Made by a program: the position numbers and the translations under genes. Below, piece by piece: positions 47,234 through 54,871 of a stretch of DNA of 64,000 bases (its first letter is position 1; every line of letters begins with the position of its first letter). The notes beneath the pieces were generated by a model. It was not told the DNA's origin. It made no database searches and was given only the letters and a program-made list of their open reading frames with translations. Source of the stretch: an uncultured Candidatus Actinomarina sp. (lineage in GTDB: Bacteria; Actinomycetota; Acidimicrobiia; Actinomarinales; Actinomarinaceae). The stretch covers positions 123,719-187,718 of the forward strand of contig CACNQV010000001.1 in NCBI GenBank assembly GCA_902622665.1, read 5' to 3'.

Positions 47234-47698
47234 GTGGCTAGAAAACTTCTTTTTTTTCTTCTTATAATTTCTTGTACGTCTACAACAGATGTTTTAACAG
47301 AATCTTCTCAAACGGTCGTAAAACAAACATTATCATCTGAAGAAATTCTTGTTGAGATACTTGATACATATAAAGTTTTTTCTGAAAATCCTAGTAATGC
47401 AGTGAATACTATTTGGGATTATGCTCATGAAAAAAATAAAGAAATAACAGGGCCAAAAGAAAGGTTTTCAATGATGCTTACTTCTCAACCATACGATGCA
47501 ATAATTGATCTTAAAGATTATTCATACGAAGTCACTTCTGAAAGTGAAGAAAATATTCAATATGAAGTAAAAGTGTTAGCTAAAAGTAACAATTATTTTG
47601 TAATAACGTGGGTATTTGAAAAAACAATTTGTGACGACAAGCAATGTTGGAGAACTACTAGTGTTAGTCAGCCAGAATTTTTTGATTCTGGAATTTAA
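47234..47698 (+). CDS. putative lipoprotein, hypothetical (154 aa)
   Basis: Signal peptide with lipobox LLIISC. Confidence 0.4.
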   Translation: MARKLLFFLLIISCTSTTDVLTESSQTVVKQTLSSEEILVEILDTYKVFSENPSNAVNTIWDYAHEKNKEITGPKERFSMMLTSQPYDAIIDLKDYSYEVTSESEENIQYEVKVLAKSNNYFVITWVFEKTICDDKQCWRTTSVSQPEFFDSGI

Positions 47699-47870: not shown

Positions 47871-48503
47871 TTACTGGTCGTCTAAGTTTTCGAGAGGGTT
47901 TTCTGGTTGACAGATTTCAAATGCATCTTGTACTGCCTCTGAACTAAAGTCTATATCAACATCTCTAAATGCAAAAAAGCCAAACTCACCAGGTTTAGGG
48001 TCTGGAAAATCTATTCCTTGTTCTCGCATGCATTGAGAAAACTCTAGCGAGGCATCAACTAAAGCTGCTTCTACCTCTGGGTCTAAATCGAATTGTTCAG
48101 GTAGTGCATTTCTTAAAATATCTTCACAATTTTCAAAAGCAGTTTCAAATTCATCTTCATTTTCTATTTCTAAATTATCGAATTGAGGATTGCCATCGAT
48201 ATCAAATGTTGGATCGGGAAAATTGATTCCTTCCTCTCTCATGCACTGTGCAAAATTAAGCACGCCCTCTTCAAAAGTAACTTCTTCTTCTACGACCGTT
48301 GTAGCTGTGGTAGAGTCAATTGTTACAACACCTGGAGACTCTTCGCCGCCAATAGTGCATGCAGAAAAAATCATTATAAAAATAAGGATATTTACTTTCG
48401 TACTGCCTCCGCTGGTTGAATTTTTGAAGCCTTTATAGCCGGATAGACACCAGAAATAGCTCCAATTAATAGCGCTAAAAGCACCGCTCCAAATATTTGC
48501 CAT
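47871..48503 (-). CDS. lipoprotein with two C-x-RE-x-G...PDP repeats (paralog family member 1)
   Basis: Lipobox-like IFSAC; two ~70-aa repeats (FAQCMREEGINFPDP / FSQCMREQGIDFPDP). The track start at 48503 overlaps FtsX by 112 nt, so the true start is uncertain. Confidence 0.55.
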   Translation of the reverse strand: MANIWSGAFSAINWSYFWCLSGYKGFKNSTSGGSTKVNILIFIMIFSACTIGGEESPGVVTIDSTTATTVVEEEVTFEEGVLNFAQCMREEGINFPDPTFDIDGNPQFDNLEIENEDEFETAFENCEDILRNALPEQFDLDPEVEAALVDASLEFSQCMREQGIDFPDPKPGEFGFFAFRDVDIDFSSEAVQDAFEICQPENPLENLDDQ

Positions 48504-49576
48504 ACAGGTATTGAGAATACAATATTCGTGTAATTAGTATAACCAAGTGTTATTACTGTTCCTAAAAGAACCCCAACAAGGCCTCCTATTCCAGACAAAA
48601 CAATGCTCTCTAATAAAAACTGGTATCGTATCTCTCTCCTAGTTGCTCCAATTGACCTTCTAACTCCAATTTCCATTCTTCTCTCTAAAACTGACATGAC
48701 CATTACATTTGCAATAGCGACACCACCAACAAGAAGTGCAACTGACCCCAGTCCCAAAAGTAAGTTAGTAAATGCTTCTTCAGCTGCCTGTTGTGCTTCG
48801 AGTGCATCTGAAGGACGAGTAACCTCAACTTGATCTGGGTTTTCAGGATTCATAGAGGGCGCAAGAACTTCAACAACGTCCTCAATAAATGTTGGATTAG
48901 CTCTTAAATAAATAGTTGTTGGCTCTTCGTCAATATCAAAAAGTATCTTTGCTACCCCATATCCAATGAATACAGATCTATCTAGGTCTGGGTGAATTTT
49001 TAGCTCTTCCAATATTCCAACTACTCCAAACCATTCATTTTCTATCAGTATCTTTGTAGGTGTAGATAGATTATTAATTCCTAATCGCTGAGCAGTTACG
49101 CTGCCTAGAACTGTTACAGGAATATCAGAGAGCCCATCCTCAATAAATCTTCCATCGATTAGATTGCCTCCTATGACGTCTAGTAACTCGGCGCTTGTAA
49201 CAATTGTTGAAATACCTCCGCCTTCAAATTCTGAAATAAAATTGCTTCTTCTTACTAGAAGGTCTGTTTGGGTTGTTGAAGTTACTTCCTGTACAGGACC
49301 AATTCTCTCAACCATACCTAAAACTCCTTTTGGAAGTTCTTCCTGCGTTCCAAAAAAACCAGCTTGTGGTGATGCTTTTACTAAATTAGTACCAAGAGAC
49401 TCCAGAGTTGAAAGAAGATCTGCCCTTCCAGAAGCTGAAATTCCAGAAACTGCAACGATTGCTGCAATTCCGATACCTATACCAATTGATGTGAGTGTTG
49501 CCCTGCCTTTTCTTGATTTTACACCATATAAAGCTACAAAAAATAAATCTTTTATTTTGAGTCTGTTTTTTTTCAT
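48392..49576 (-). CDS. ABC transporter permease, FtsX/MacB family
   Basis: N-terminal TM, large periplasmic domain, three C-terminal TM helices, C-terminus ...IQPAEAVRK typical of FtsX-like permeases. Confidence 0.8.
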   Translation of the reverse strand: MKKNRLKIKDLFFVALYGVKSRKGRATLTSIGIGIGIAAIVAVSGISASGRADLLSTLESLGTNLVKASPQAGFFGTQEELPKGVLGMVERIGPVQEVTSTTQTDLLVRRSNFISEFEGGGISTIVTSAELLDVIGGNLIDGRFIEDGLSDIPVTVLGSVTAQRLGINNLSTPTKILIENEWFGVVGILEELKIHPDLDRSVFIGYGVAKILFDIDEEPTTIYLRANPTFIEDVVEVLAPSMNPENPDQVEVTRPSDALEAQQAAEEAFTNLLLGLGSVALLVGGVAIANVMVMSVLERRMEIGVRRSIGATRREIRYQFLLESIVLSGIGGLVGVLLGTVITLGYTNYTNIVFSIPVWQIFGAVLLALLIGAISGVYPAIKASKIQPAEAVRK

Positions 49577-50256
49577 TAACTTACTATTTTTCCATCAACT
49601 AGTTCGATGACTTTTTTAAACATACTTGCGTGCTCTTGGTTATGAGTAATCATTATTACTGTTTTACCTTGATTGTTTAAGTCTTTTAAAATATTGAGTA
49701 TGTTTACACCAGATTCTTTATCTAAATTTCCTGTTGGTTCATCTGCTAATACGAATGCTGGATCTTGCACAAGAGCACGAGCAATCGCAACTCTTTGTTG
49801 TTGACCACCTGACAATTCTTTAGGTAAGTGGGTCAACCTGTCCCCAAGGCCAACTTGTTCTAAAACTTCCTTAGCTTTTTCTAATCTATCTTTTCTTGAA
49901 ACGCCTTGGTACAAAAGGCCTTCAGCGACGTTTTCTTGAGCGGTTAATCCTGGAAGTAGAAAAAAACTTTGAAATATAAATCCAATCTTTTCACCTCTAA
50001 ACTTTGAAAGTTCATTGTCTGAGAGTTCCGAAACGTCTTTTCCTTCTATTTCAATAGAGCCGTCAGTTATGCTATCTAGTAATCCAATCATATTTAAAAA
50101 TGTAGATTTTCCACTACCTGATTGGCCAACTATTGAGACAAAATCTCCTTCTTTAATTTCAAGCGAGACACCATCTAGAGCTCTTACTTGTGGAGGACCT
50201 TCATATACTTTTGAAATATTATCTATAGAGATTACAGTTTTTGTACTGGTATTCAT
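49576..50256 (-). CDS. ABC transporter ATP-binding protein (MacB/LolD type)
   Basis: Walker A GQSGSGKST, signature LSGGQQQRVAIARAL, Walker B FVLADEPTGNLD. Confidence 0.85.
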   Translation of the reverse strand: MNTSTKTVISIDNISKVYEGPPQVRALDGVSLEIKEGDFVSIVGQSGSGKSTFLNMIGLLDSITDGSIEIEGKDVSELSDNELSKFRGEKIGFIFQSFFLLPGLTAQENVAEGLLYQGVSRKDRLEKAKEVLEQVGLGDRLTHLPKELSGGQQQRVAIARALVQDPAFVLADEPTGNLDKESGVNILNILKDLNNQGKTVIMITHNQEHASMFKKVIELVDGKIVS

Positions 50257-51977
50257 CTTGGTACGACTACTGTTTGACCCTCTGAGATATTTCCTTTTAC
50301 TTCGACGAAGCCATCCGTAAAGACTCCTATTTCAACCGCAACATAGCTAGTATCAACACCAGACTCTCCTTCAAAAGTTCCTCCATCAAGCTCTCCGTCA
50401 TAAATTTCTAAAGCATATCCGCCCTCTGCTAAAGCCAGTAAAGCATTTACAGGAACATACAATACATTTTCTGAGATCTCTGTAGTGACAAACACTTTTA
50501 CCGGGGCCTGATCATAAGCTTCAATCTCTTCTGGATTAAGTACTTCTAAGGTGACCTCTATAAATTCTCCTGCTTGAGTTTGTGTTACAACTTGGTCTAT
50601 AAAAGTAATGACCGTAGGGACTCTTTCATCTGTGGGAAGCTCTATCTCAACACTATCACCAAGAGATACTGTTTCTTGGTCAGTCGCATCAACTTGAAAA
50701 ACAACCTCTATTCCAATAGAGGAAATGTTATAAAGTGGTGAATTTAATGTAACTGCAGATCCCACATCGCTAATGTAAGAACCAACAATTATTGCTGTTT
50801 TTGATGCATAAGCATTTGTTGGGCTAAAAGTTTCAGATTGTGCGGAAAGTTTTAATTCATTAAGTTCTTCTTTTGCTTTTGCTAGTTCTGACTCTTGGTC
50901 AACTCCCTCGTTATAACTTTTTAATGCATCGTCATATGCTTTTTGAGCATTCTCTATCGCCAGTGCTTCCGTTGCATCTACTCCTTCGTTATAACTTTTT
51001 AATGCATCGTCATATGCTTTTTGAGCATTCTCTATTGCCAGTGCTTCCGTTGCATCTACAACAGAACCTTCTCCTTCTTCCATTTCTCTAATTCTTTTTT
51101 GTTCTTCAATTAAATCTTCATAGTCTTTAATTTCTTCGTCCCTTGTTTCTTGCGATTTAGCAATAGTTCTTGGGTTTGTAAGATCTTTTAAAAGAGAGAT
51201 TTGTTGATTGTAGTCTTCAATTAAATTAGTAGCTGCTTGCCATGCTGCATTTTCTTTGGTGGAATTTTCAATAGCATCATCTAATGTTTTCTTTTTGCTG
51301 TTTACTTCAGCTAAAGTTGTGACAGAGTCTTTTTGTAAATCTTCTAATATTTTCTTTTTGCTGTTTACTTCAGCTAAAGTTGTTCCTCCGTTCGATATTG
51401 TGTCTTCTATGTTTTCAACTTCAGTTTGTTTTAAATTTATAGCAACTTGCTCAGAAGGAGTAATTTCAGATTTTGTTTCAATCTTATAATCAATATAAAG
51501 CGAGTTAAGCATATTCGATGTAGTTTCATCAAAAGTTTCATCAGGCACAAAATCTTCAGCTGCGTAACCTAAAAATACAAGAGCTCTTTCGAGCTGAAAA
51601 ACATCTGGGCCTGGATCAGAATTGAGATCAAGAGTTCTGTAAAAGGGGGTCTTTCCCTCAACTAAAATTACAGGTTTATTGTCAACCGCAAAAAGTACTT
51701 CTCCAAAATTTATTATTGTTCCTTCTTTTGGAGCAAAAGTAACTACTCCAGATAAAGGTGAGTTAAGAACCCTGCTGTTCGTTTGTCTTAATGTGCCGTT
51801 ATATTCTTCTTTTTTTGCCAAATCACCTTTTTGTATTTCAGTAGTAGTTAATTCTAGAGTTTTACTACTTGAGGATGTTTCTGTATTTTGAGTTCCAAAA
51901 TAATAAGCACCGTAACCTAATGCCACCACAGCTATTAAAATGTATAAGTTTTTTAATTTAAATATATTTTTCATCAT
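50253..51977 (-). CDS. periplasmic adaptor / membrane-fusion protein (HlyD/MacA-like) with internal tandem repeats
   Basis: N-terminal TM anchor; long coiled-coil centre containing exact 26-aa (YDDALKSYNEGVDATEALAIENAQKA x2) and ~21-aa (TTLAEVNSKKK...) tandem repeats; C-terminal beta-rich domain; 4-nt overlap with the ATPase gene. Confidence 0.6.
   Translation of the reverse strand: MMKNIFKLKNLYILIAVVALGYGAYYFGTQNTETSSSSKTLELTTTEIQKGDLAKKEEYNGTLRQTNSRVLNSPLSGVVTFAPKEGTIINFGEVLFAVDNKPVILVEGKTPFYRTLDLNSDPGPDVFQLERALVFLGYAAEDFVPDETFDETTSNMLNSLYIDYKIETKSEITPSEQVAINLKQTEVENIEDTISNGGTTLAEVNSKKKILEDLQKDSVTTLAEVNSKKKTLDDAIENSTKENAAWQAATNLIEDYNQQISLLKDLTNPRTIAKSQETRDEEIKDYEDLIEEQKRIREMEEGEGSVVDATEALAIENAQKAYDDALKSYNEGVDATEALAIENAQKAYDDALKSYNEGVDQESELAKAKEELNELKLSAQSETFSPTNAYASKTAIIVGSYISDVGSAVTLNSPLYNISSIGIEVVFQVDATDQETVSLGDSVEIELPTDERVPTVITFIDQVVTQTQAGEFIEVTLEVLNPEEIEAYDQAPVKVFVTTEISENVLYVPVNALLALAEGGYALEIYDGELDGGTFEGESGVDTSYVAVEIGVFTDGFVEVKGNISEGQTVVVPR
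50904..51059. repeat. 78-bp near-perfect tandem direct repeat x2 inside the adaptor gene
   Basis: ctcc(c/t)tcgttataactttttaatgcatcgtcatatgctttttgagcattctctat(c/t)gccagtgcttccgttgcatcta appears twice back to back. Confidence 0.8.
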
Positions 51978-52040
51978 TGTTCCAATTAGATTAGTTTATT
52001 AAACCTGTATATTTTCTGTGAAATTATTTCACTTAGTTTT

Positions 52041-52640
52041 TTATGCACCCCACTCCTCATCTTTTAGCTCTTCTGGCAATTTATCTTCACATGATTGCCA
52101 TGTTTGGACCAATGGATCATCTTCTCTAAGCTCCCAGTCTTCATCAATATAAGCATCTAACCTGACTTCTCTGTTGAAATAGTCTGGATCTGGGACTTTT
52201 GGATATCCACTTTCTCTAAAACACTTCGCCATAAATAACGATCTATCAATTTCTTTTGATACTTGTGCCGGGTCTTCAAATTGGTTTTCATCCGCTAACC
52301 CCCATAAATTATATTTCAAAGCACATTCCTCGATTATGTCCCAGAGTTCCTCAGCCTCTTGTTCGGTTATTGTTTCAAAATATGATGCAATTGTGGTGTA
52401 AAGGTCTAAAAAATTTTTTGGTTCTTTAAATTTATAACCTGATTCATTAACACATTGAACAAGTACTAATGGAGCGTCTTCGTCAGAAATTTCTTCTTGT
52501 TGGTCTTTAAGCTGTACACCAGAAGCAATTGCCTCCTTACCTTTATCAGTGTCAGCAACTGAAACAACAGATTGTTCTTCTTGTTGGAAGAATGAACATG
52601 CTGTTAAAAAAATGAGTACTAATGAAGCTTTTTTATACAT
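52041..52640 (-). CDS. lipoprotein with two C-x-RE-x-G...PDP repeats (paralog 2)
   Basis: Internal start MYKKASLVLIFLTAC (lipobox LTAC) preferred over the track start; repeats VQCVNESGYKFKEP / AKCFRESGYPKVPDP. Confidence 0.55.
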   Translation of the reverse strand: MYKKASLVLIFLTACSFFQQEEQSVVSVADTDKGKEAIASGVQLKDQQEEISDEDAPLVLVQCVNESGYKFKEPKNFLDLYTTIASYFETITEQEAEELWDIIEECALKYNLWGLADENQFEDPAQVSKEIDRSLFMAKCFRESGYPKVPDPDYFNREVRLDAYIDEDWELREDDPLVQTWQSCEDKLPEELKDEEWGA

Positions 52641-52665
52641 AAAAAAATTATAAAGAAAACTGGAG

Positions 52666-53256
52666 TTATCCTCCACCTTGTTGTGGTGGTTCAATTCCAA
52701 GATCGTCAAAGCATTCTTCAGCAGATGCTCTAATTTGGTCTTCTAGATATTGTCCAGACTGAACGAGGCCAACAAGTATAGATCTAAGAGGTTTTTCAGT
52801 GTTTGGGTCTTCAACCTCTATTCCTTTTCGTCTCAAACATTGAGCAAATTCGAGTTCAGTGTCTAATGTATCTGCAACTTCTTCGGGATTTTCAAATTCT
52901 GCGGTGCTACCCAGGGGAATATTGTTTTCATCACCACATGTCTGTATTGTCTCAAAAAGTTCTTCTCTTCCTTTTTGATCAGCAGCTAAAAAAACTGGTC
53001 GAAGAACACTTTGTAAACTCTGATCATTTTTAGGATCAGTAATATCGTATCCATTTTCTCTTAAGCACTTAGCTAGTAAAAGTTGTGCATCTTCAACTGA
53101 AACGAGTTCTTCAGCAACTTTCTCTACGATCGTTGTAACTGTTGTATCACTTGATAAATCTTTTGTAGAAACAACTCCTTGCGAATCATCTGATGAAGAG
53201 CATGCAGAGATAAAAACAAATGTAAGTAATAAGAAGATTGTTAAATATTTTTTCAT
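52666..53256 (-). CDS. lipoprotein with two C-x-RE-x-G...DP repeats (paralog 3)
   Basis: Internal start MKKYLTIFLLLTFVFISAC (lipobox ISAC); repeats AKCLRENGYDITDP / AQCLRRKGIEVEDP. Confidence 0.55.
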   Translation of the reverse strand: MKKYLTIFLLLTFVFISACSSSDDSQGVVSTKDLSSDTTVTTIVEKVAEELVSVEDAQLLLAKCLRENGYDITDPKNDQSLQSVLRPVFLAADQKGREELFETIQTCGDENNIPLGSTAEFENPEEVADTLDTELEFAQCLRRKGIEVEDPNTEKPLRSILVGLVQSGQYLEDQIRASAEECFDDLGIEPPQQGGG

Positions 53257-53273
53257 AAGGCTTAATTTAATAC

Positions 53274-53765
53274 TTATTTTTGCCAACCACATTCTTGTAG
53301 CAACGGCATAATGTCATCTTTAGATTCCTTGAGCCCACTTAAATCAACCTTAGGTTCTTGTTGATTTGGATCAGGAACATTTAACCCTTTTTCTCTTAAG
53401 CATTTAGCCAATTCAAGATTTTCATCATATATTTTGGCAAGCTCTTCTGGATTCGAGGAAGATGAATCTGACCAGAGATTATATTTACTTATGCAGTAAT
53501 CAACATCTTCCCCCAACTTCAGCTCCTCATATTTGCTGTTGCTCAACTGACTAATTGTTGTTTTTAAATCTTGTATATCAAATGGAGTTGCTATGTTATA
53601 CCCCATTTCTTCATTTAAGCATTGGGTTAAAACAATTGGATAATCCTGTACTGCTATGACCGAAGTGGTGGTTGTTTCATTTGATAGAGAAGCTACTCCA
53701 TCATCACTAGAAGTAGAACATAAATTAAAGAGAAGAGTAATAATTATTAAATGTGTTTTTTTCAA
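53274..53765 (-). CDS. lipoprotein with two C-x-RE-x-G...PDP repeats (paralog 4)
   Basis: Signal peptide MKKTHLIIITLLFNLCS; repeats TQCLNEEMGYNIATP / AKCLREKGLNVPDP. Confidence 0.55.
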   Translation of the reverse strand: MKKTHLIIITLLFNLCSTSSDDGVASLSNETTTTSVIAVQDYPIVLTQCLNEEMGYNIATPFDIQDLKTTISQLSNSKYEELKLGEDVDYCISKYNLWSDSSSSNPEELAKIYDENLELAKCLREKGLNVPDPNQQEPKVDLSGLKESKDDIMPLLQECGWQK

Positions 53766-53767
53766 TT

Positions 53768-54871
53768 TTATTTATTTCTCAAACCAAATAATGGCCTTAA
53801 TGGCTTAATATTTTTTACTGCGTGATAAATCGTTAAAGATAGAAAGCAAATCAAGAACAGAACAATTGGAAATTTAATTATTGGATGAATATTTATACCA
53901 GCAAAAAAATACATTATTGCCATTTGTACGGGTAAGTGAACAATGTATACAGGATATACTGCTGTTTTATAATAGGTAAGTTGTGGTGAGTCTTTGTTTA
54001 AATAAACTGCAGCAAGGCCTAGTAATAAAAATATAAAATTAAAAGACTCGAAAGCTATAAGTCTATTATCCAGGGCATAATCATTTTGAAAATTATTCTC
54101 CCACCTGTATAGATAAGAGATAGTTCCAAAAACTAGATGAATACGCCAATTTCTCTTATTAGATTCCCAGAAAACATCACCCTGCGAAGTTAAAACAATA
54201 CCAATTAGGAACCATAGAAAACCGAGTAAAAGCCCATGCTCAGTATTTGCGTATCCATTATAAAAATCTCCATAGTAGGAATCTGGGTTAAATCTGAAAA
54301 GATTTAGAAGATAACCTTCAGCAATGATAGGTATTGAAAATATAAATATACCTCCAGGTTTTTGAAGTAAAAAAGAAACGATACCTTCTTTTTGCTTTTT
54401 ATTAGAAATATAATTTAAAACGGGAACTAACAGAATGCAGTAAATCAATATGTTTAAAAGAAACCATAAATGAACGCCATTAAATTCAAAAGCAGAAAAT
54501 ATTAACCATAGTGAGTCAGGCGACCATCCCTCATAATATGTAACAGCAATTATGAGAGAAGCTGTAGCAAAAGTAATTGTTCCAAACAGCCATGGGACTA
54601 CAAGAATCTTGACTCTTTCTTTAAGGATTTCTGGACGCGATCTTTTTTGAAACGATAACCTTAGGGCAATTCCAGCAATCAAAAAAACTAACGGTAATCT
54701 CCATGTATTAAGTAAGTTCAATAATGGCCATATTCCATCAGTAACTCTTTTATTTTGAACAAAGAGAATATAAGGAGAGAGTGATGTAAATGAAATTCCA
54801 AGGTGATAAAAAATAAGTAGAAACATTGCTATGGACCTCAAGGCGTCAATGTCATATCTTCTCTCATTCAT
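53768..54871 (-). CDS. acyltransferase family 3 (membrane O-acyltransferase, OpgC/OafA-like)
   Basis: N-terminal DIDALRSIAMFLLIFYHL (cf. LDGLRGIA..V..H of PF01757); ~10 TM helices. Confidence 0.65.
   Translation of the reverse strand: MNERRYDIDALRSIAMFLLIFYHLGISFTSLSPYILFVQNKRVTDGIWPLLNLLNTWRLPLVFLIAGIALRLSFQKRSRPEILKERVKILVVPWLFGTITFATASLIIAVTYYEGWSPDSLWLIFSAFEFNGVHLWFLLNILIYCILLVPVLNYISNKKQKEGIVSFLLQKPGGIFIFSIPIIAEGYLLNLFRFNPDSYYGDFYNGYANTEHGLLLGFLWFLIGIVLTSQGDVFWESNKRNWRIHLVFGTISYLYRWENNFQNDYALDNRLIAFESFNFIFLLLGLAAVYLNKDSPQLTYYKTAVYPVYIVHLPVQMAIMYFFAGINIHPIIKFPIVLFLICFLSLTIYHAVKNIKPLRPLFGLRNK

What the first reader, a model, noticed from the sequence alone, without database searches (positions are those of the whole stretch)
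47871..53765. Family of four paralogous lipoproteins built from a repeated C-x-RE-x-G-(I/Y)...PDP module, flanking a MacB-type ABC efflux operon
The four proteins (47871-48503, 52041-52640, 52666-53256, 53274-53765) share one plan: lipobox signal, short linker, then two copies of a ~70-aa acidic module. The module begins (F/L)AxC(L/M)RExG(I/Y)x(F/V)(P/E)DP and ends with a second Cys, so there is probably one disulfide per module.

Three paralogs lie in tandem upstream of, and one immediately downstream of, the adaptor-ATPase-FtsX permease operon. I do not recognise this domain.

Tandem paralogous secreted proteins next to a MacB-like exporter suggest exported substrates or partners (e.g. bacteriocin/immunity-like, or periplasmic binding or chaperone components), or a lineage-specific cell-envelope protein family.
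Basis: seen in the sequence. Interest (0 to 1): 0.6.

Follow-up and report, generated by a model that had tools for sequence, protein, structure and literature searches.

The report
Unnamed lipoprotein partner of MacB pumps
The four cysteine-paired, membrane-anchored proteins around this ABC pump belong to a large unnamed family that was encoded next to this type of pump in every informative locus I checked in Actinomycetota and Chloroflexota, so they are most likely an uncharacterised fourth part of the pump, here multiplied to four copies.

Summary
Four minus-strand genes (A 53274-53765, B 52666-53256, C 52041-52640, D 47871-48503) encode paralogs. Each has a signal peptide with a Cys and two copies of a ~60-aa three-helix module carrying one invariant Cys pair.

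The family has no Pfam, NCBIfam or PADLOC match, and no PDB sequence or fold match. It is not lineage-specific: about 2,975 representative clusters match, from Actinomycetota and Chloroflexota.

Gene linkage is strict in both directions.
- Of 80 genomes found through the lipoprotein, 73 of 73 informative loci carry adaptor, ATPase and MacB/FtsX permease directly downstream. 68 of 71 have an OmpR-type two-component system next door.
- Of 36 informative loci found through the permease, all 36 carry the lipoprotein upstream.

Elsewhere the gene is nearly always single-copy. This Actinomarina-like genome has four copies, all under purifying selection. It has no two-component system within 64 kb, and its adaptor has a lengthened coiled coil.

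Best reading: a membrane-tethered, extracytoplasmic partner of a MacB-type (type VII ABC) machine. Its biochemical role is inferred, not shown. Bacteriocin, metal-chaperone and PG_binding_1 readings were tested and not supported. I rate it a new variant of a known kind, of moderate interest.

The parts
53274..53765 (-). Paralog A (163 aa, TTG start). It has an atypical lipobox (FNLC). Modules lie at about 53478-53657 and 53277-53438. The first module is degenerate (CLNEE...TP).
   Evidence: ORF. Cys pattern and motifs. Family HMM score 94 bits. dN/dS about 0.10 against Actinomarina orthologs.
52666..53256 (-). Paralog B (196 aa, lipobox ISAC). Modules lie at about 52921-53103 and 52696-52875.
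   Evidence: Family HMM score 142 bits. AF2 model of the mature protein has pLDDT 85 and shows two three-helix modules. dN/dS about 0.17.
52041..52640 (-). Paralog C (199 aa, lipobox LTAC). Modules lie at about 52308-52490 and 52074-52259. The first module is degenerate (CVNES...EP). It sits 63 nt upstream of the adaptor gene, which is the position of the single-copy gene in other genomes.
   Evidence: Family HMM score 112 bits. dN/dS about 0.07.
50253..51977 (-). Membrane-fusion-type adaptor (574 aa). Its N- and C-terminal parts are homologous to the PG_binding_1-containing adaptors of the canonical cassette. A ~225-aa coiled-coil insertion lies between them.
   Evidence: BLASTP to the Nonomuraea adaptor gives 33-34% identity over residues 48-178 and 404-573. 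Weak NCBIfam match to the CzcB-type adaptor family. Window-specific 21-aa and 26-aa duplications.
50902..51059 (.). A 78-nt x 2 tandem duplication (97% identical) inside the adaptor's coiled coil.
   Evidence: TRF. Absent from L001 and L170 orthologs.
49576..50256 (-). ABC ATPase of the MacB/LolD/FtsE type. Its ATG start overlaps the adaptor's TGA stop by four bases (ATGA).
   Evidence: Pfam ABC_tran E 4e-35. NCBIfam best matches are DarD, MacB and LolD. Junction sequence.
48392..49576 (-). MacB-type permease (MacB_PCD plus FtsX 4-TM domain). Its start overlaps the ATPase stop.
   Evidence: Pfam FtsX 3.8e-21 and MacB_PCD 4.7e-15. 46% identity to the Nonomuraea cassette permease.
47871..48503 (-). 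Paralog D (210 aa from ATG 48503; lipobox FSAC at Cys49; mature part about 161 aa). Modules lie at about 48111-48281 and 47895-48068. It is the most canonical copy (FAQCMREEGINFPDP). Its start codon is uncertain.
   Evidence: Family HMM score 172 bits, the highest of the four. dN/dS about 0.04. The ortholog in sister lineage L170 starts at an ATGA overlap with the permease stop.

Best explanation
The four genes encode membrane-tethered, extracytoplasmic partner proteins of a MacB-type (type VII ABC, mechanotransmission) transporter.

Shown:
- They belong to a large unannotated family of proteins, mostly lipoproteins.
- Each protein is built from two homologous three-helix modules, each with an invariant Cys pair.
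- In Actinomycetota and Chloroflexota the gene is the first gene of a four-gene cassette: lipoprotein, PG-binding adaptor, ABC ATPase, MacB/FtsX permease. An OmpR-type response regulator and a histidine kinase usually lie next to it.
- The window carries the same cassette, but with four diverged copies (three upstream, one downstream). All four are under purifying selection. There is no two-component system within 64 kb.

Inferred:
- The protein sits on the outer face of the membrane beside the MacB periplasmic domain and the adaptor.
- A conserved short motif, V-A-S-L-like, lies 8-10 residues after the lipidated Cys. It is proposed to dock the protein to the machine.
- The helical, disulfide-braced modules are proposed to bind the transported compound, an amphipathic or hydrophobic molecule or peptide taken from the membrane surface or wall zone. 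They would present it to the pump or accept it from the pump.
- In this streamlined marine genome, the four paralogs are proposed to broaden or partition that specificity in place of transcriptional induction.
For: Paralogy and module repeat.

Family size and spread: 2,975 clusters with E<=1e-3 and 411 with E<=1e-10. Taxa include Acidimicrobiia, Amycolatopsis, Nonomuraea, Nocardioides, Thermoleophilia, Nitriliruptorales, Streptomyces chartreusis, Limnocylindrales, Chloroflexia and Anaerolineaceae.

Linkage seeded on the lipoprotein:
- The adaptor is adjacent in 79/80 loci and within the cluster in 80/80.
- The full adaptor, ATPase and permease set is on the same strand in 73/73 informative loci.
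- RR plus HK are adjacent in 68/71 informative loci.

Linkage seeded on the permease: 36/36 informative metagenome loci carry the lipoprotein upstream on the same strand.

The lipoprotein stop overlaps the adaptor start in L005 and L007. No other gene is conserved around the cassette.

The window transporter is orthologous to the canonical one (permease 46% identity; adaptor).

Anchoring: 221 of 259 members have a lipobox. Some others, such as P0154 and P0187, have an N-terminal TM helix instead.

Linker motif: present in 160/221 members against 3.4 expected from shuffling, at a fixed 8-10 residues from the Cys.

All four window paralogs have dN/dS of 0.04-0.17.

The window keeps the lipoproteins although no RR or HK is detectable in 64 kb. 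That ties them to the pump rather than to the sensor.

AF2 model: pLDDT 85, with the modules above 90.
Against: No physical interaction, ligand or phenotype is known, and the role is inferred from gene context only.

The fold has no informative structural neighbour (best Foldseek E 1.3), so 'ligand-binding' has no structural precedent. The only hints are sub-threshold Pfam matches to PBP_GOBP (E 0.01-0.04 in 3 of 10 members).

Acidity is common but not universal: 52/65 members have pI<5 and 4 are basic. A simple charge-based capture mechanism therefore cannot be general.

The loci kept by both scans are the best-scoring 80, so looser relatives of the transporter could lack the lipoprotein.

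Operon structure in the window is inferred from spacing. The promoter and terminator scans were uninformative.
Confidence: 0.6

Rival explanations
1. The lipoprotein is the cargo or effector rather than a helper. In this reading the MacB-type machine acts on the lipoprotein itself. It could extract or release it from the membrane as LolCDE does, or switch its conformation mechanically as FtsEX does with EnvC or RipC. The lipoprotein would then do something in the wall zone.
For: MacB-family machines are known to act on lipoproteins (LolCDE) or on periplasmic partner proteins (FtsEX); review PMC5985334, read. The conserved motif at a fixed 8-10 residues from the acylated Cys is what one would expect if the anchor and linker are held by the transporter. 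The adaptor carries a peptidoglycan-binding domain. Strict 1:1 gene linkage fits this reading as well as the helper reading.
Against: Some members are anchored by a TM helix or lack a lipobox, which does not fit acyl-chain extraction. The protein has no enzymatic or coiled-coil regulator domain. NCBIfam LolC/E and FtsX models score far below their cut-offs for the permease (40 vs 362 bits; 35 vs 250 bits). Monoderm hosts have no known need for lipoprotein release.
Confidence: 0.17
2. The lipoprotein is a co-sensor for the adjacent histidine kinase. It would bind a signal outside the cell and modulate the kinase, as LpqB does with MtrB or HbpS with SenS (both from my own knowledge).
For: RR plus HK are adjacent in 68/71 informative loci. 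The kinase has a ~140-aa extracytoplasmic domain that is poorly conserved, as is the variable middle of the lipoprotein modules.
Against: The gene is co-oriented with, and overlaps, the adaptor gene rather than the TCS genes. The window and its relatives keep four or two copies with the pump while no RR or HK is detectable in the window. L048 has no adjacent RR or HK hit, and L012 and L081 lack an adjacent HK hit.
Confidence: 0.1
3. It is a metal (Cu/Ag/Zn) or redox chaperone, analogous to CusF in CusRS-CusCFBA. Binding would use the Cys pairs or the Met/His residues of the CMREHGVDMPDP motif.
For: The cassette TCS scores best against the NCBIfam heavy-metal RR and HK subfamilies, though below their cut-offs (204 vs 279 bits; 200 vs 293 bits). 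The window adaptor's best NCBIfam hit is CzcB/NccB (E 3e-7). A TlpA-like CxxC thioredoxin lipoprotein lies directly upstream in sister lineage L170. The overall layout resembles cusRS/cusCFBA (my own knowledge).
Against: The Met and His positions are not conserved. Met is replaced by L, V or F, and His by E, Q, N or K. All eight window modules lack the His, and only the two modules of D keep the Met after the first Cys. The kinase sensor domain has no column with His, Met or Cys at 40% or more across 68 cassettes. The NCBIfam hits are generic OmpR/EnvZ-type matches, with MtrA/B, PhoB and BaeS scoring almost as high. No thioredoxin homolog is found in the window.
Confidence: 0.06
4. They are secreted bacteriocin or immunity-like proteins, or unrelated envelope proteins that merely happen to sit beside the pump.
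For: They are small, acidic, Cys-containing and paralogous, and they sit next to an exporter of a family that includes bacteriocin exporters (NCBIfam L_ocin_972_ABC hit of the ATPase).
Against: They are membrane-anchored, not free. The gene is single-copy and strictly linked in two phyla. The loci searched with the family and adaptor models gave only those hits, and no further gene is shared around the cassette. Purifying selection is in the same range as the adaptor's (0.09), though weaker than on the ATPase and permease (0.02). There is no PADLOC or Pfam toxin or immunity match.
Confidence: 0.03

Closest known systems
Gram-positive MacAB-like systems with an adaptor (B. subtilis YknWXYZ, S. 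pneumoniae Spr0693-0695); review PMC5985334
   Same: Both have a separate ABC ATPase, a 4-TM FtsX-type permease with a MacB periplasmic core domain, and a membrane-fusion-type adaptor in a bacterium without a classical outer membrane. [quoted passage not shown] YknW is an extra, non-transporter subunit (my own knowledge).
   Different: The extra subunit here is an unrelated two-module Cys-paired lipoprotein, and it is encoded first in the operon. In the canonical cassette the adaptor carries a Pfam PG_binding_1 domain; it is degenerate in the window. The cassette is paired with an OmpR-type TCS. It is distributed in Actinomycetota and Chloroflexota, not Firmicutes.
LolCDE (lipoprotein extraction) and FtsEX-EnvC/RipC (mechanical activation of a periplasmic partner)
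   Same: Both use a MacB-fold ABC machine whose work is done on a lipoprotein or on a dedicated extracytoplasmic partner protein rather than on a cytoplasmic substrate.
   Different: The permease scores far below the NCBIfam LolC/E and FtsX cut-offs. The permease is single, not a LolC/LolE pair. An adaptor is present. The partner has no hydrolase-activator or LolA-like features.
TCS-coupled peptide-antibiotic ABC modules with small accessory proteins (BceRS-AB type; YxdJK-LM-YxeA; VraDE-VraH). The accessory-protein examples are from my own knowledge.
   Same: A two-component system lies next to a type VII ABC transporter, together with a small extra protein of unknown role that is conserved with the transporter.
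   Different: The permease is the 4-TM MacB type, not the 10-TM BceB type. The kinase has a ~140-aa external domain and is not an intramembrane-sensing kinase. An adaptor is present. The accessory protein is unrelated in sequence.
CusRS / CusCFBA (small periplasmic chaperone plus adaptor plus pump plus divergent TCS)
   Same: The gene layout matches: a divergent OmpR-type TCS, then a small extracytoplasmic protein, then an adaptor, then a pump. The TCS has its best, sub-threshold NCBIfam matches to heavy-metal RR and HK subfamilies.
   Different: The pump is an ABC/MacB type, not RND. The putative ligand residues are not conserved. There is no similarity to CusF.

Membership tests
MacB-type (type VII) ABC transporter with adaptor | Permease with an N-terminal TM, a MacB periplasmic core domain and a C-terminal FtsX 4-TM bundle | tested here: met
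   Pfam MacB_PCD 4.7e-15 (57 bits, cut-off 27) and FtsX 3.8e-21 (76 bits, cut-off 25.5) on 48392-49576.
MacB-type (type VII) ABC transporter with adaptor | Cognate ABC ATPase of the MacB/LolD/FtsE clade | tested here: met
   Pfam ABC_tran 3.8e-35. The best NCBIfam matches are DarD, MacB and LolD at 230-239 bits. The gene overlaps both neighbours.
MacB-type (type VII) ABC transporter with adaptor | Membrane-fusion (HlyD/MacA-like) adaptor | tested here: inconclusive
   No Pfam HlyD model matches. There is only a weak NCBIfam CzcB/NccB match (E 3e-7, 30 bits vs 319 cut-off). The protein is clearly homologous to the cassette adaptors that carry PG_binding_1.
Bacterial lipoproteins | Signal peptide ending in a lipobox [LVI][ASTVI][GAS]C | tested here: met
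   B has ISAC, C has LTAC and D has FSAC. A has FNLC, which is atypical. 221 of 259 family members have a lipobox. Lipidation itself is not testable here.
The unnamed two-module 'CxRExG...PDP' lipoprotein family defined here | Two homologous modules, each with an invariant Cys pair plus a conserved R, G and D-P | tested here: met
   Invariant columns in 65 sequences are C, G, C, C, R, P, C. Module 1 vs module 2 hhalign gives 99.8% probability. All four window proteins score 94-172 bits against the family HMM.
The unnamed two-module 'CxRExG...PDP' lipoprotein family defined here | Encoded on the same strand next to the adaptor, ATPase and MacB-permease genes | tested here: met
   Window. Elsewhere: 73/73 and 36/36 informative loci.
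BceAB-BceRS-type peptide-antibiotic modules | 10-TM BceB permease with a large extracellular domain, an intramembrane-sensing kinase and no adaptor | tested here: not met
   The permease is 394 aa with a 4-TM MacB layout. The cassette kinase has a ~140-aa external domain. An adaptor is present.
LolCDE / FtsEX | Permease reaching the curated LolC/E or FtsX family score | tested here: not met
   NCBIfam lolCE scores 40 bits vs a 362 cut-off. FtsX_actino scores 35 bits vs 250.
CusF-like / metal chaperone | Conserved metal-ligand residues (Met/His/Cys motif) in the chaperone and the sensor | tested here: not met
   The Met and His positions are variable, and the His is absent from all eight window modules. 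No conserved H, M or C is found in the kinase sensor domain. The four Cys are invariant, but their redox or metal state is not testable here.
PG_binding_1 (three-helix peptidoglycan-binding domain) | Profile similarity of the module to PG_binding_1 | tested here: not met
   hhalign of the module profile against the adaptors' PG_binding_1 region gives probability 0.1%. There is no Pfam hit at E<=1.
PBP/GOBP-like helical disulfide ligand-binding proteins | Pfam PF01395 gathering score | tested here: not met
   Best scores are 14-16 bits against a cut-off of 22, in 3 of 10 high-GC members and none of the window proteins.

The most novel reading that the evidence does not exclude
The cassette is a previously unrecognised four-component envelope machine of monoderm Terrabacteria. 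In it a MacB-type motor, held to the wall by a peptidoglycan-binding adaptor, works on a dedicated lipoprotein. Either it hands a membrane-derived lipid or amphiphile to the disulfide-braced helical modules, a Lol-like extraction and hand-off in bacteria not known to have one, or it mechanically switches the lipoprotein. The four Actinomarina paralogs would then be four alternative acceptors or effectors for one motor.
Probability: 0.17. Interest if true: 0.8.

Novelty: new variant of a known kind. Interest (0 to 1): 0.55.

Why it matters
MacB-type (type VII) ABC machines are understood mainly from Gram-negative MacAB-TolC, LolCDE and FtsEX. What adaptor-containing versions do in bacteria without an outer membrane is an open question (PMC5985334).

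This work identifies a fourth component that is conserved, strictly linked and unannotated. It has a fold without a solved relative, in a cassette widespread in Actinomycetota and Chloroflexota. Carriers include culturable antibiotic producers (Amycolatopsis, Nonomuraea, Streptomyces chartreusis), in which it can be tested genetically.

It also gives a name-worthy domain family (about 3,000 clusters at 50% identity) to thousands of 'hypothetical proteins'.

Finally, one of the smallest free-living marine actinobacteria keeps four copies of it while its cassette has no adjacent regulator. That argues the protein is central to the machine's function.

Tried and rejected
1. Known-family searches found nothing above noise. 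I searched Pfam and NCBIfam on the four window proteins and on 10 high-GC members, and PADLOC on the window proteins.
2. PDB by sequence, using profiles A1 and A4, matched only signal peptides.
4. The idea that the three-helix module is a diverged PG_binding_1 was rejected: hhalign probability 0.1%.
5. The copper/metal chaperone idea came from the CMREHGVDMPDP motif and from heavy-metal-like TCS hits. I rejected it as a general explanation because the ligand positions vary and the kinase sensor has no conserved H, M or C.
6. The charge-capture idea (an acidic protein binding cationic peptides) is weakened because 4 of 65 members are basic.
7. The apparent lipoprotein-adaptor fusion P0146 is best read as an assembly frameshift. 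The linker is Arg-rich out-of-frame-looking sequence, and the topology would be impossible.
8. The extra 146-aa ORF between A and B in L002-L004 is an unrelated membrane protein.
9. I first took D to start at a GTG at 48395. The codon is GTA, so that was wrong.
I used narrower ones (A5, A7) instead.
11. An all-against-all ORF clustering timed out. A reduced version showed no further conserved neighbours.
12. Promoter and terminator scans were uninformative, with fewer sites than in shuffles.
13. Six literature searches found no description of the family or of this cassette.

Full report
**What is in the window**

The region lies in a 30-38% G+C genome. Its closest relatives are Candidatus Actinomarina MAGs. 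For example, P0042, the C ortholog, is named 'Candidatus Actinomarina sp.'.

On the minus strand the gene order is: Acyl_transf_3 gene (53768-54871), A (53274-53765), B (52666-53256), C (52041-52640), adaptor (50253-51977), ABC ATPase (49576-50256), MacB_PCD/FtsX permease (48392-49576), D (47871-48503). Gaps are 2, 17, 25 and 63 nt. The adaptor/ATPase and ATPase/permease junctions overlap.

- The four proteins are paralogs, with BLASTP E-values of 2e-10 to 2e-23.
- Each has a signal peptide ending in a Cys, then four more Cys as two Cys...~40 aa...Cys units.
- The eight units align in register.
- Family-wide, unit 1 and unit 2 are homologous (hhalign 99.8%, E 1e-29).
- The mature proteins are very acidic, with pI about 4.1.

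Four corrections apply.
- The first units of A and C have lost the Arg and the Asp-Pro.
- A's lipobox (FNLC) is atypical.
- D's only canonical start is ATG 48503, 112 nt inside the permease gene. A sister lineage uses a short ATGA-coupled start that has been lost here.
- The units are about 55-65 aa, not 70.

**The family is large and unannotated**

No Pfam, NCBIfam or PADLOC model matches the window proteins or ten high-GC relatives. No PDB chain matches by sequence.

A profile of the four mature proteins found 2,975 representative clusters (50% identity) at E<=1e-3, and 411 at E<=1e-10. These share the consensus ...L.FA.CMRE.G(V/I)D.PDP...A..aC..., present twice. Where sources name the matches, the names are 'hypothetical protein' or 'secreted protein', apart from one JGI 'DUF305 family' label.

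A scan of one genome per species placed the family in these groups:
- Acidimicrobiia
- Pseudonocardiales (Amycolatopsis)
- Streptosporangiales (Nonomuraea and others)
- Nocardioides
- Micromonosporaceae
- Thermoleophilia
- Nitriliruptorales
- Streptomyces chartreusis and Embleya
- Chloroflexota (Limnocylindrales, Chloroflexia, Anaerolineaceae)

So it is not an Actinomarina-specific family.

**Structure**

With a 65-sequence alignment, AlphaFold2 gave pLDDT 85, with the two units above 90.

Each unit has three parts:
- a helix ending in C-x-R-E-x-G;
- the PDP loop and a variable stretch, which is helical in the window protein and Gly-rich in many relatives;
- a helix that carries the second Cys.

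The N-terminal 30 residues after the lipobox are of low confidence. I could not read the coordinates, so the Cys-Cys distance is not verified. One disulfide per unit is inferred from the invariance of all four Cys.

**Gene context is the decisive evidence**

In Nonomuraea and in metagenome contigs the gene sits between a divergent OmpR-type RR-HK pair and a PG_binding_1 adaptor, an ABC ATPase and a MacB_PCD/FtsX permease. Its stop overlaps the adaptor start. I then tested linkage in both directions.

*Seeded on the lipoprotein* (80 genomes):
- The adaptor lies immediately downstream in 79 loci. In the eightieth the TCS is inserted between the two genes.
- All 73 loci with enough downstream sequence carry adaptor, ATPase and permease on the same strand.
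- 68 of 71 loci with enough upstream sequence have RR plus HK adjacent (54 divergent, 14 co-directional).

*Seeded on the permease*, independently of the lipoprotein (80 metagenome loci at 53-79% identity): all 36 loci with at least 2.5 kb upstream carry a family member upstream on the same strand.

No other gene is conserved around the cassette. The window's permease (46% identity) and adaptor are orthologous to the canonical ones.

**What is special about the window**

- Copy number is one in 79 of the 80 genome loci (L049 has a weak second hit), but four in the window and its Actinomarina relatives.
- A sister marine lineage (L170/L171) has two copies: a B-like copy upstream and a D-like copy translationally coupled downstream of the permease. 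A few unrelated metagenome loci also have a second copy, one of them downstream (L130).
- D is the most canonical copy (172 bits against the family HMM; A 94, C 112, B 142) and the most constrained (dN/dS 0.04). All four are under purifying selection (0.04-0.17).
- No RR or HK is detectable anywhere in the 64-kb window.
- The adaptor lacks a recognisable Pfam PG_binding_1 hit. It carries a ~225-aa coiled-coil insertion relative to the ~350-aa canonical adaptors. Two further window-specific tandem duplications, of 21 and 26 aa, lie inside that insertion.

**Further anatomy bearing on mechanism**

- 221 of 259 members with a recognisable module have a lipobox. Some of the rest have a TM anchor instead. 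Tethering to the outer face of the membrane therefore seems to matter more than lipidation as such.
- A short motif, [VI][AVS][ST][LIVMF], lies 8-10 residues after the lipobox Cys in 160 of 221 members, against 3.4 expected from shuffled linkers. Examples are GVASL in paralog A and in many relatives, and GVVS, SVVS and GVVT in B, C and D. I read it as a docking element near the membrane surface. This is inference.
- Acidity is frequent (52/65 members with pI<5) but not universal.
- The cassette kinase has a ~140-aa external domain, and that domain is poorly conserved.

**Interpretation**

Strict two-way linkage, co-orientation with overlap of the adaptor gene, and retention with the pump where no two-component system lies nearby all point the same way. 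The protein is a dedicated extracytoplasmic partner of the MacB-type machine. I put about 0.8 on partnership in the broad sense. That figure includes the 0.6 I give to the helper reading and the 0.17 I give to the cargo/effector rival below.

How it works is inferred. MacB-family machines take substrates from the outer leaflet or periplasm, or act mechanically on partner proteins (PMC5985334). The most economical model is a tethered substrate-presenting or substrate-accepting subunit. The four Actinomarina paralogs would then diversify specificity.

Rivals, in descending order:
- The lipoprotein is itself the cargo or effector, in a Lol-like or FtsEX-like manner.
- It is a co-sensor for the kinase.
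- It is a metal or redox chaperone.
- It is a bacteriocin, an immunity protein or a coincidental neighbour.

The metal idea was tested and not supported. Homology to PG_binding_1 was tested and rejected.

**Comparison with known systems and novelty**

The transporter is a member of the MacB/type VII ABC family. The cassette is not a Bce-type, Lol or FtsEX system.

The closest analogues are the Gram-positive adaptor-containing MacAB-like pumps (YknWXYZ, Spr0693-0695) and, in layout only, CusRS/CusCFBA.

Six literature searches found no description of this lipoprotein family or of the cassette. That library lacks most subscription journals.

I rate it a new variant of a known kind: a four-component MacB-type system with an unannotated, structurally unmatched partner family. 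Interest is moderate (0.55).

Noticed in passing
window 50902-51059 and about 51330-51450 (adaptor gene 50253-51977): The adaptor carries two window-specific in-frame tandem duplications in its coiled coil. One is 26 aa (78 nt x 2, 97% identical) and one is 21 aa. Both are absent from the Actinomarina relative L001 and the sister lineage L170. The whole ~225-aa coiled-coil segment is absent from the ~350-aa canonical adaptors.
   Followed up: partly
window 48392-48503: D's ORF overlaps the 3' end of the permease gene by 112 nt in another frame. In sister lineage L170 the ortholog starts at an ATGA overlap with the permease stop. That ATG is lost here, and a GGAGG lies 112 nt downstream of the only canonical ATG. 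The real start of D is therefore unresolved.
   Followed up: partly
L170 6486-6977 (also L171 3842-4333): A TlpA/ResA-like thioredoxin lipoprotein (lipobox LISC, active site CPTC) lies directly upstream of the family lipoprotein in a sister marine lineage. This may be relevant to the redox state of the invariant Cys pairs. No homolog is found in the window.
   Followed up: partly
L172 2497-3075: A B-like family member (107 bits) sits on a 3.4-kb, 34% G+C contig next to a DNA methyltransferase and a gene with a weak Phage_T4_gp2 hit. No adaptor lies downstream. It may be a phage-borne or island copy.
   Followed up: no
window 47234-47698 (+): A 154-aa ORF with a lipoprotein-like signal (LIISC) is convergent with D and conserved at the same place in Actinomarina relatives. 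It has only a weak DUF4864 hit (E 0.011) and is unrelated to the family.
   Followed up: no
window 53768-54871 (-): An Acyl_transf_3 (OpgC/MdoC-like) membrane acyltransferase gene ends 2 nt before A's TTG start and is syntenic in all Actinomarina relatives. It may be co-transcribed with the lipoprotein and pump genes. It is absent from the sister lineage L170 at this position.
   Followed up: no
L130 7189-7866; L140, L158, L166: A few high-GC metagenome cassettes also have a second family copy. One lies directly downstream of the permease, as in the window, so duplication of this gene has happened more than once.
   Followed up: partly
L001-L004, about 13218-13579 in L001 coordinates: A pair of divergently oriented 51-aa ORFs is conserved downstream of the cassette in all four Actinomarina relatives. 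I did not examine them.
   Followed up: no
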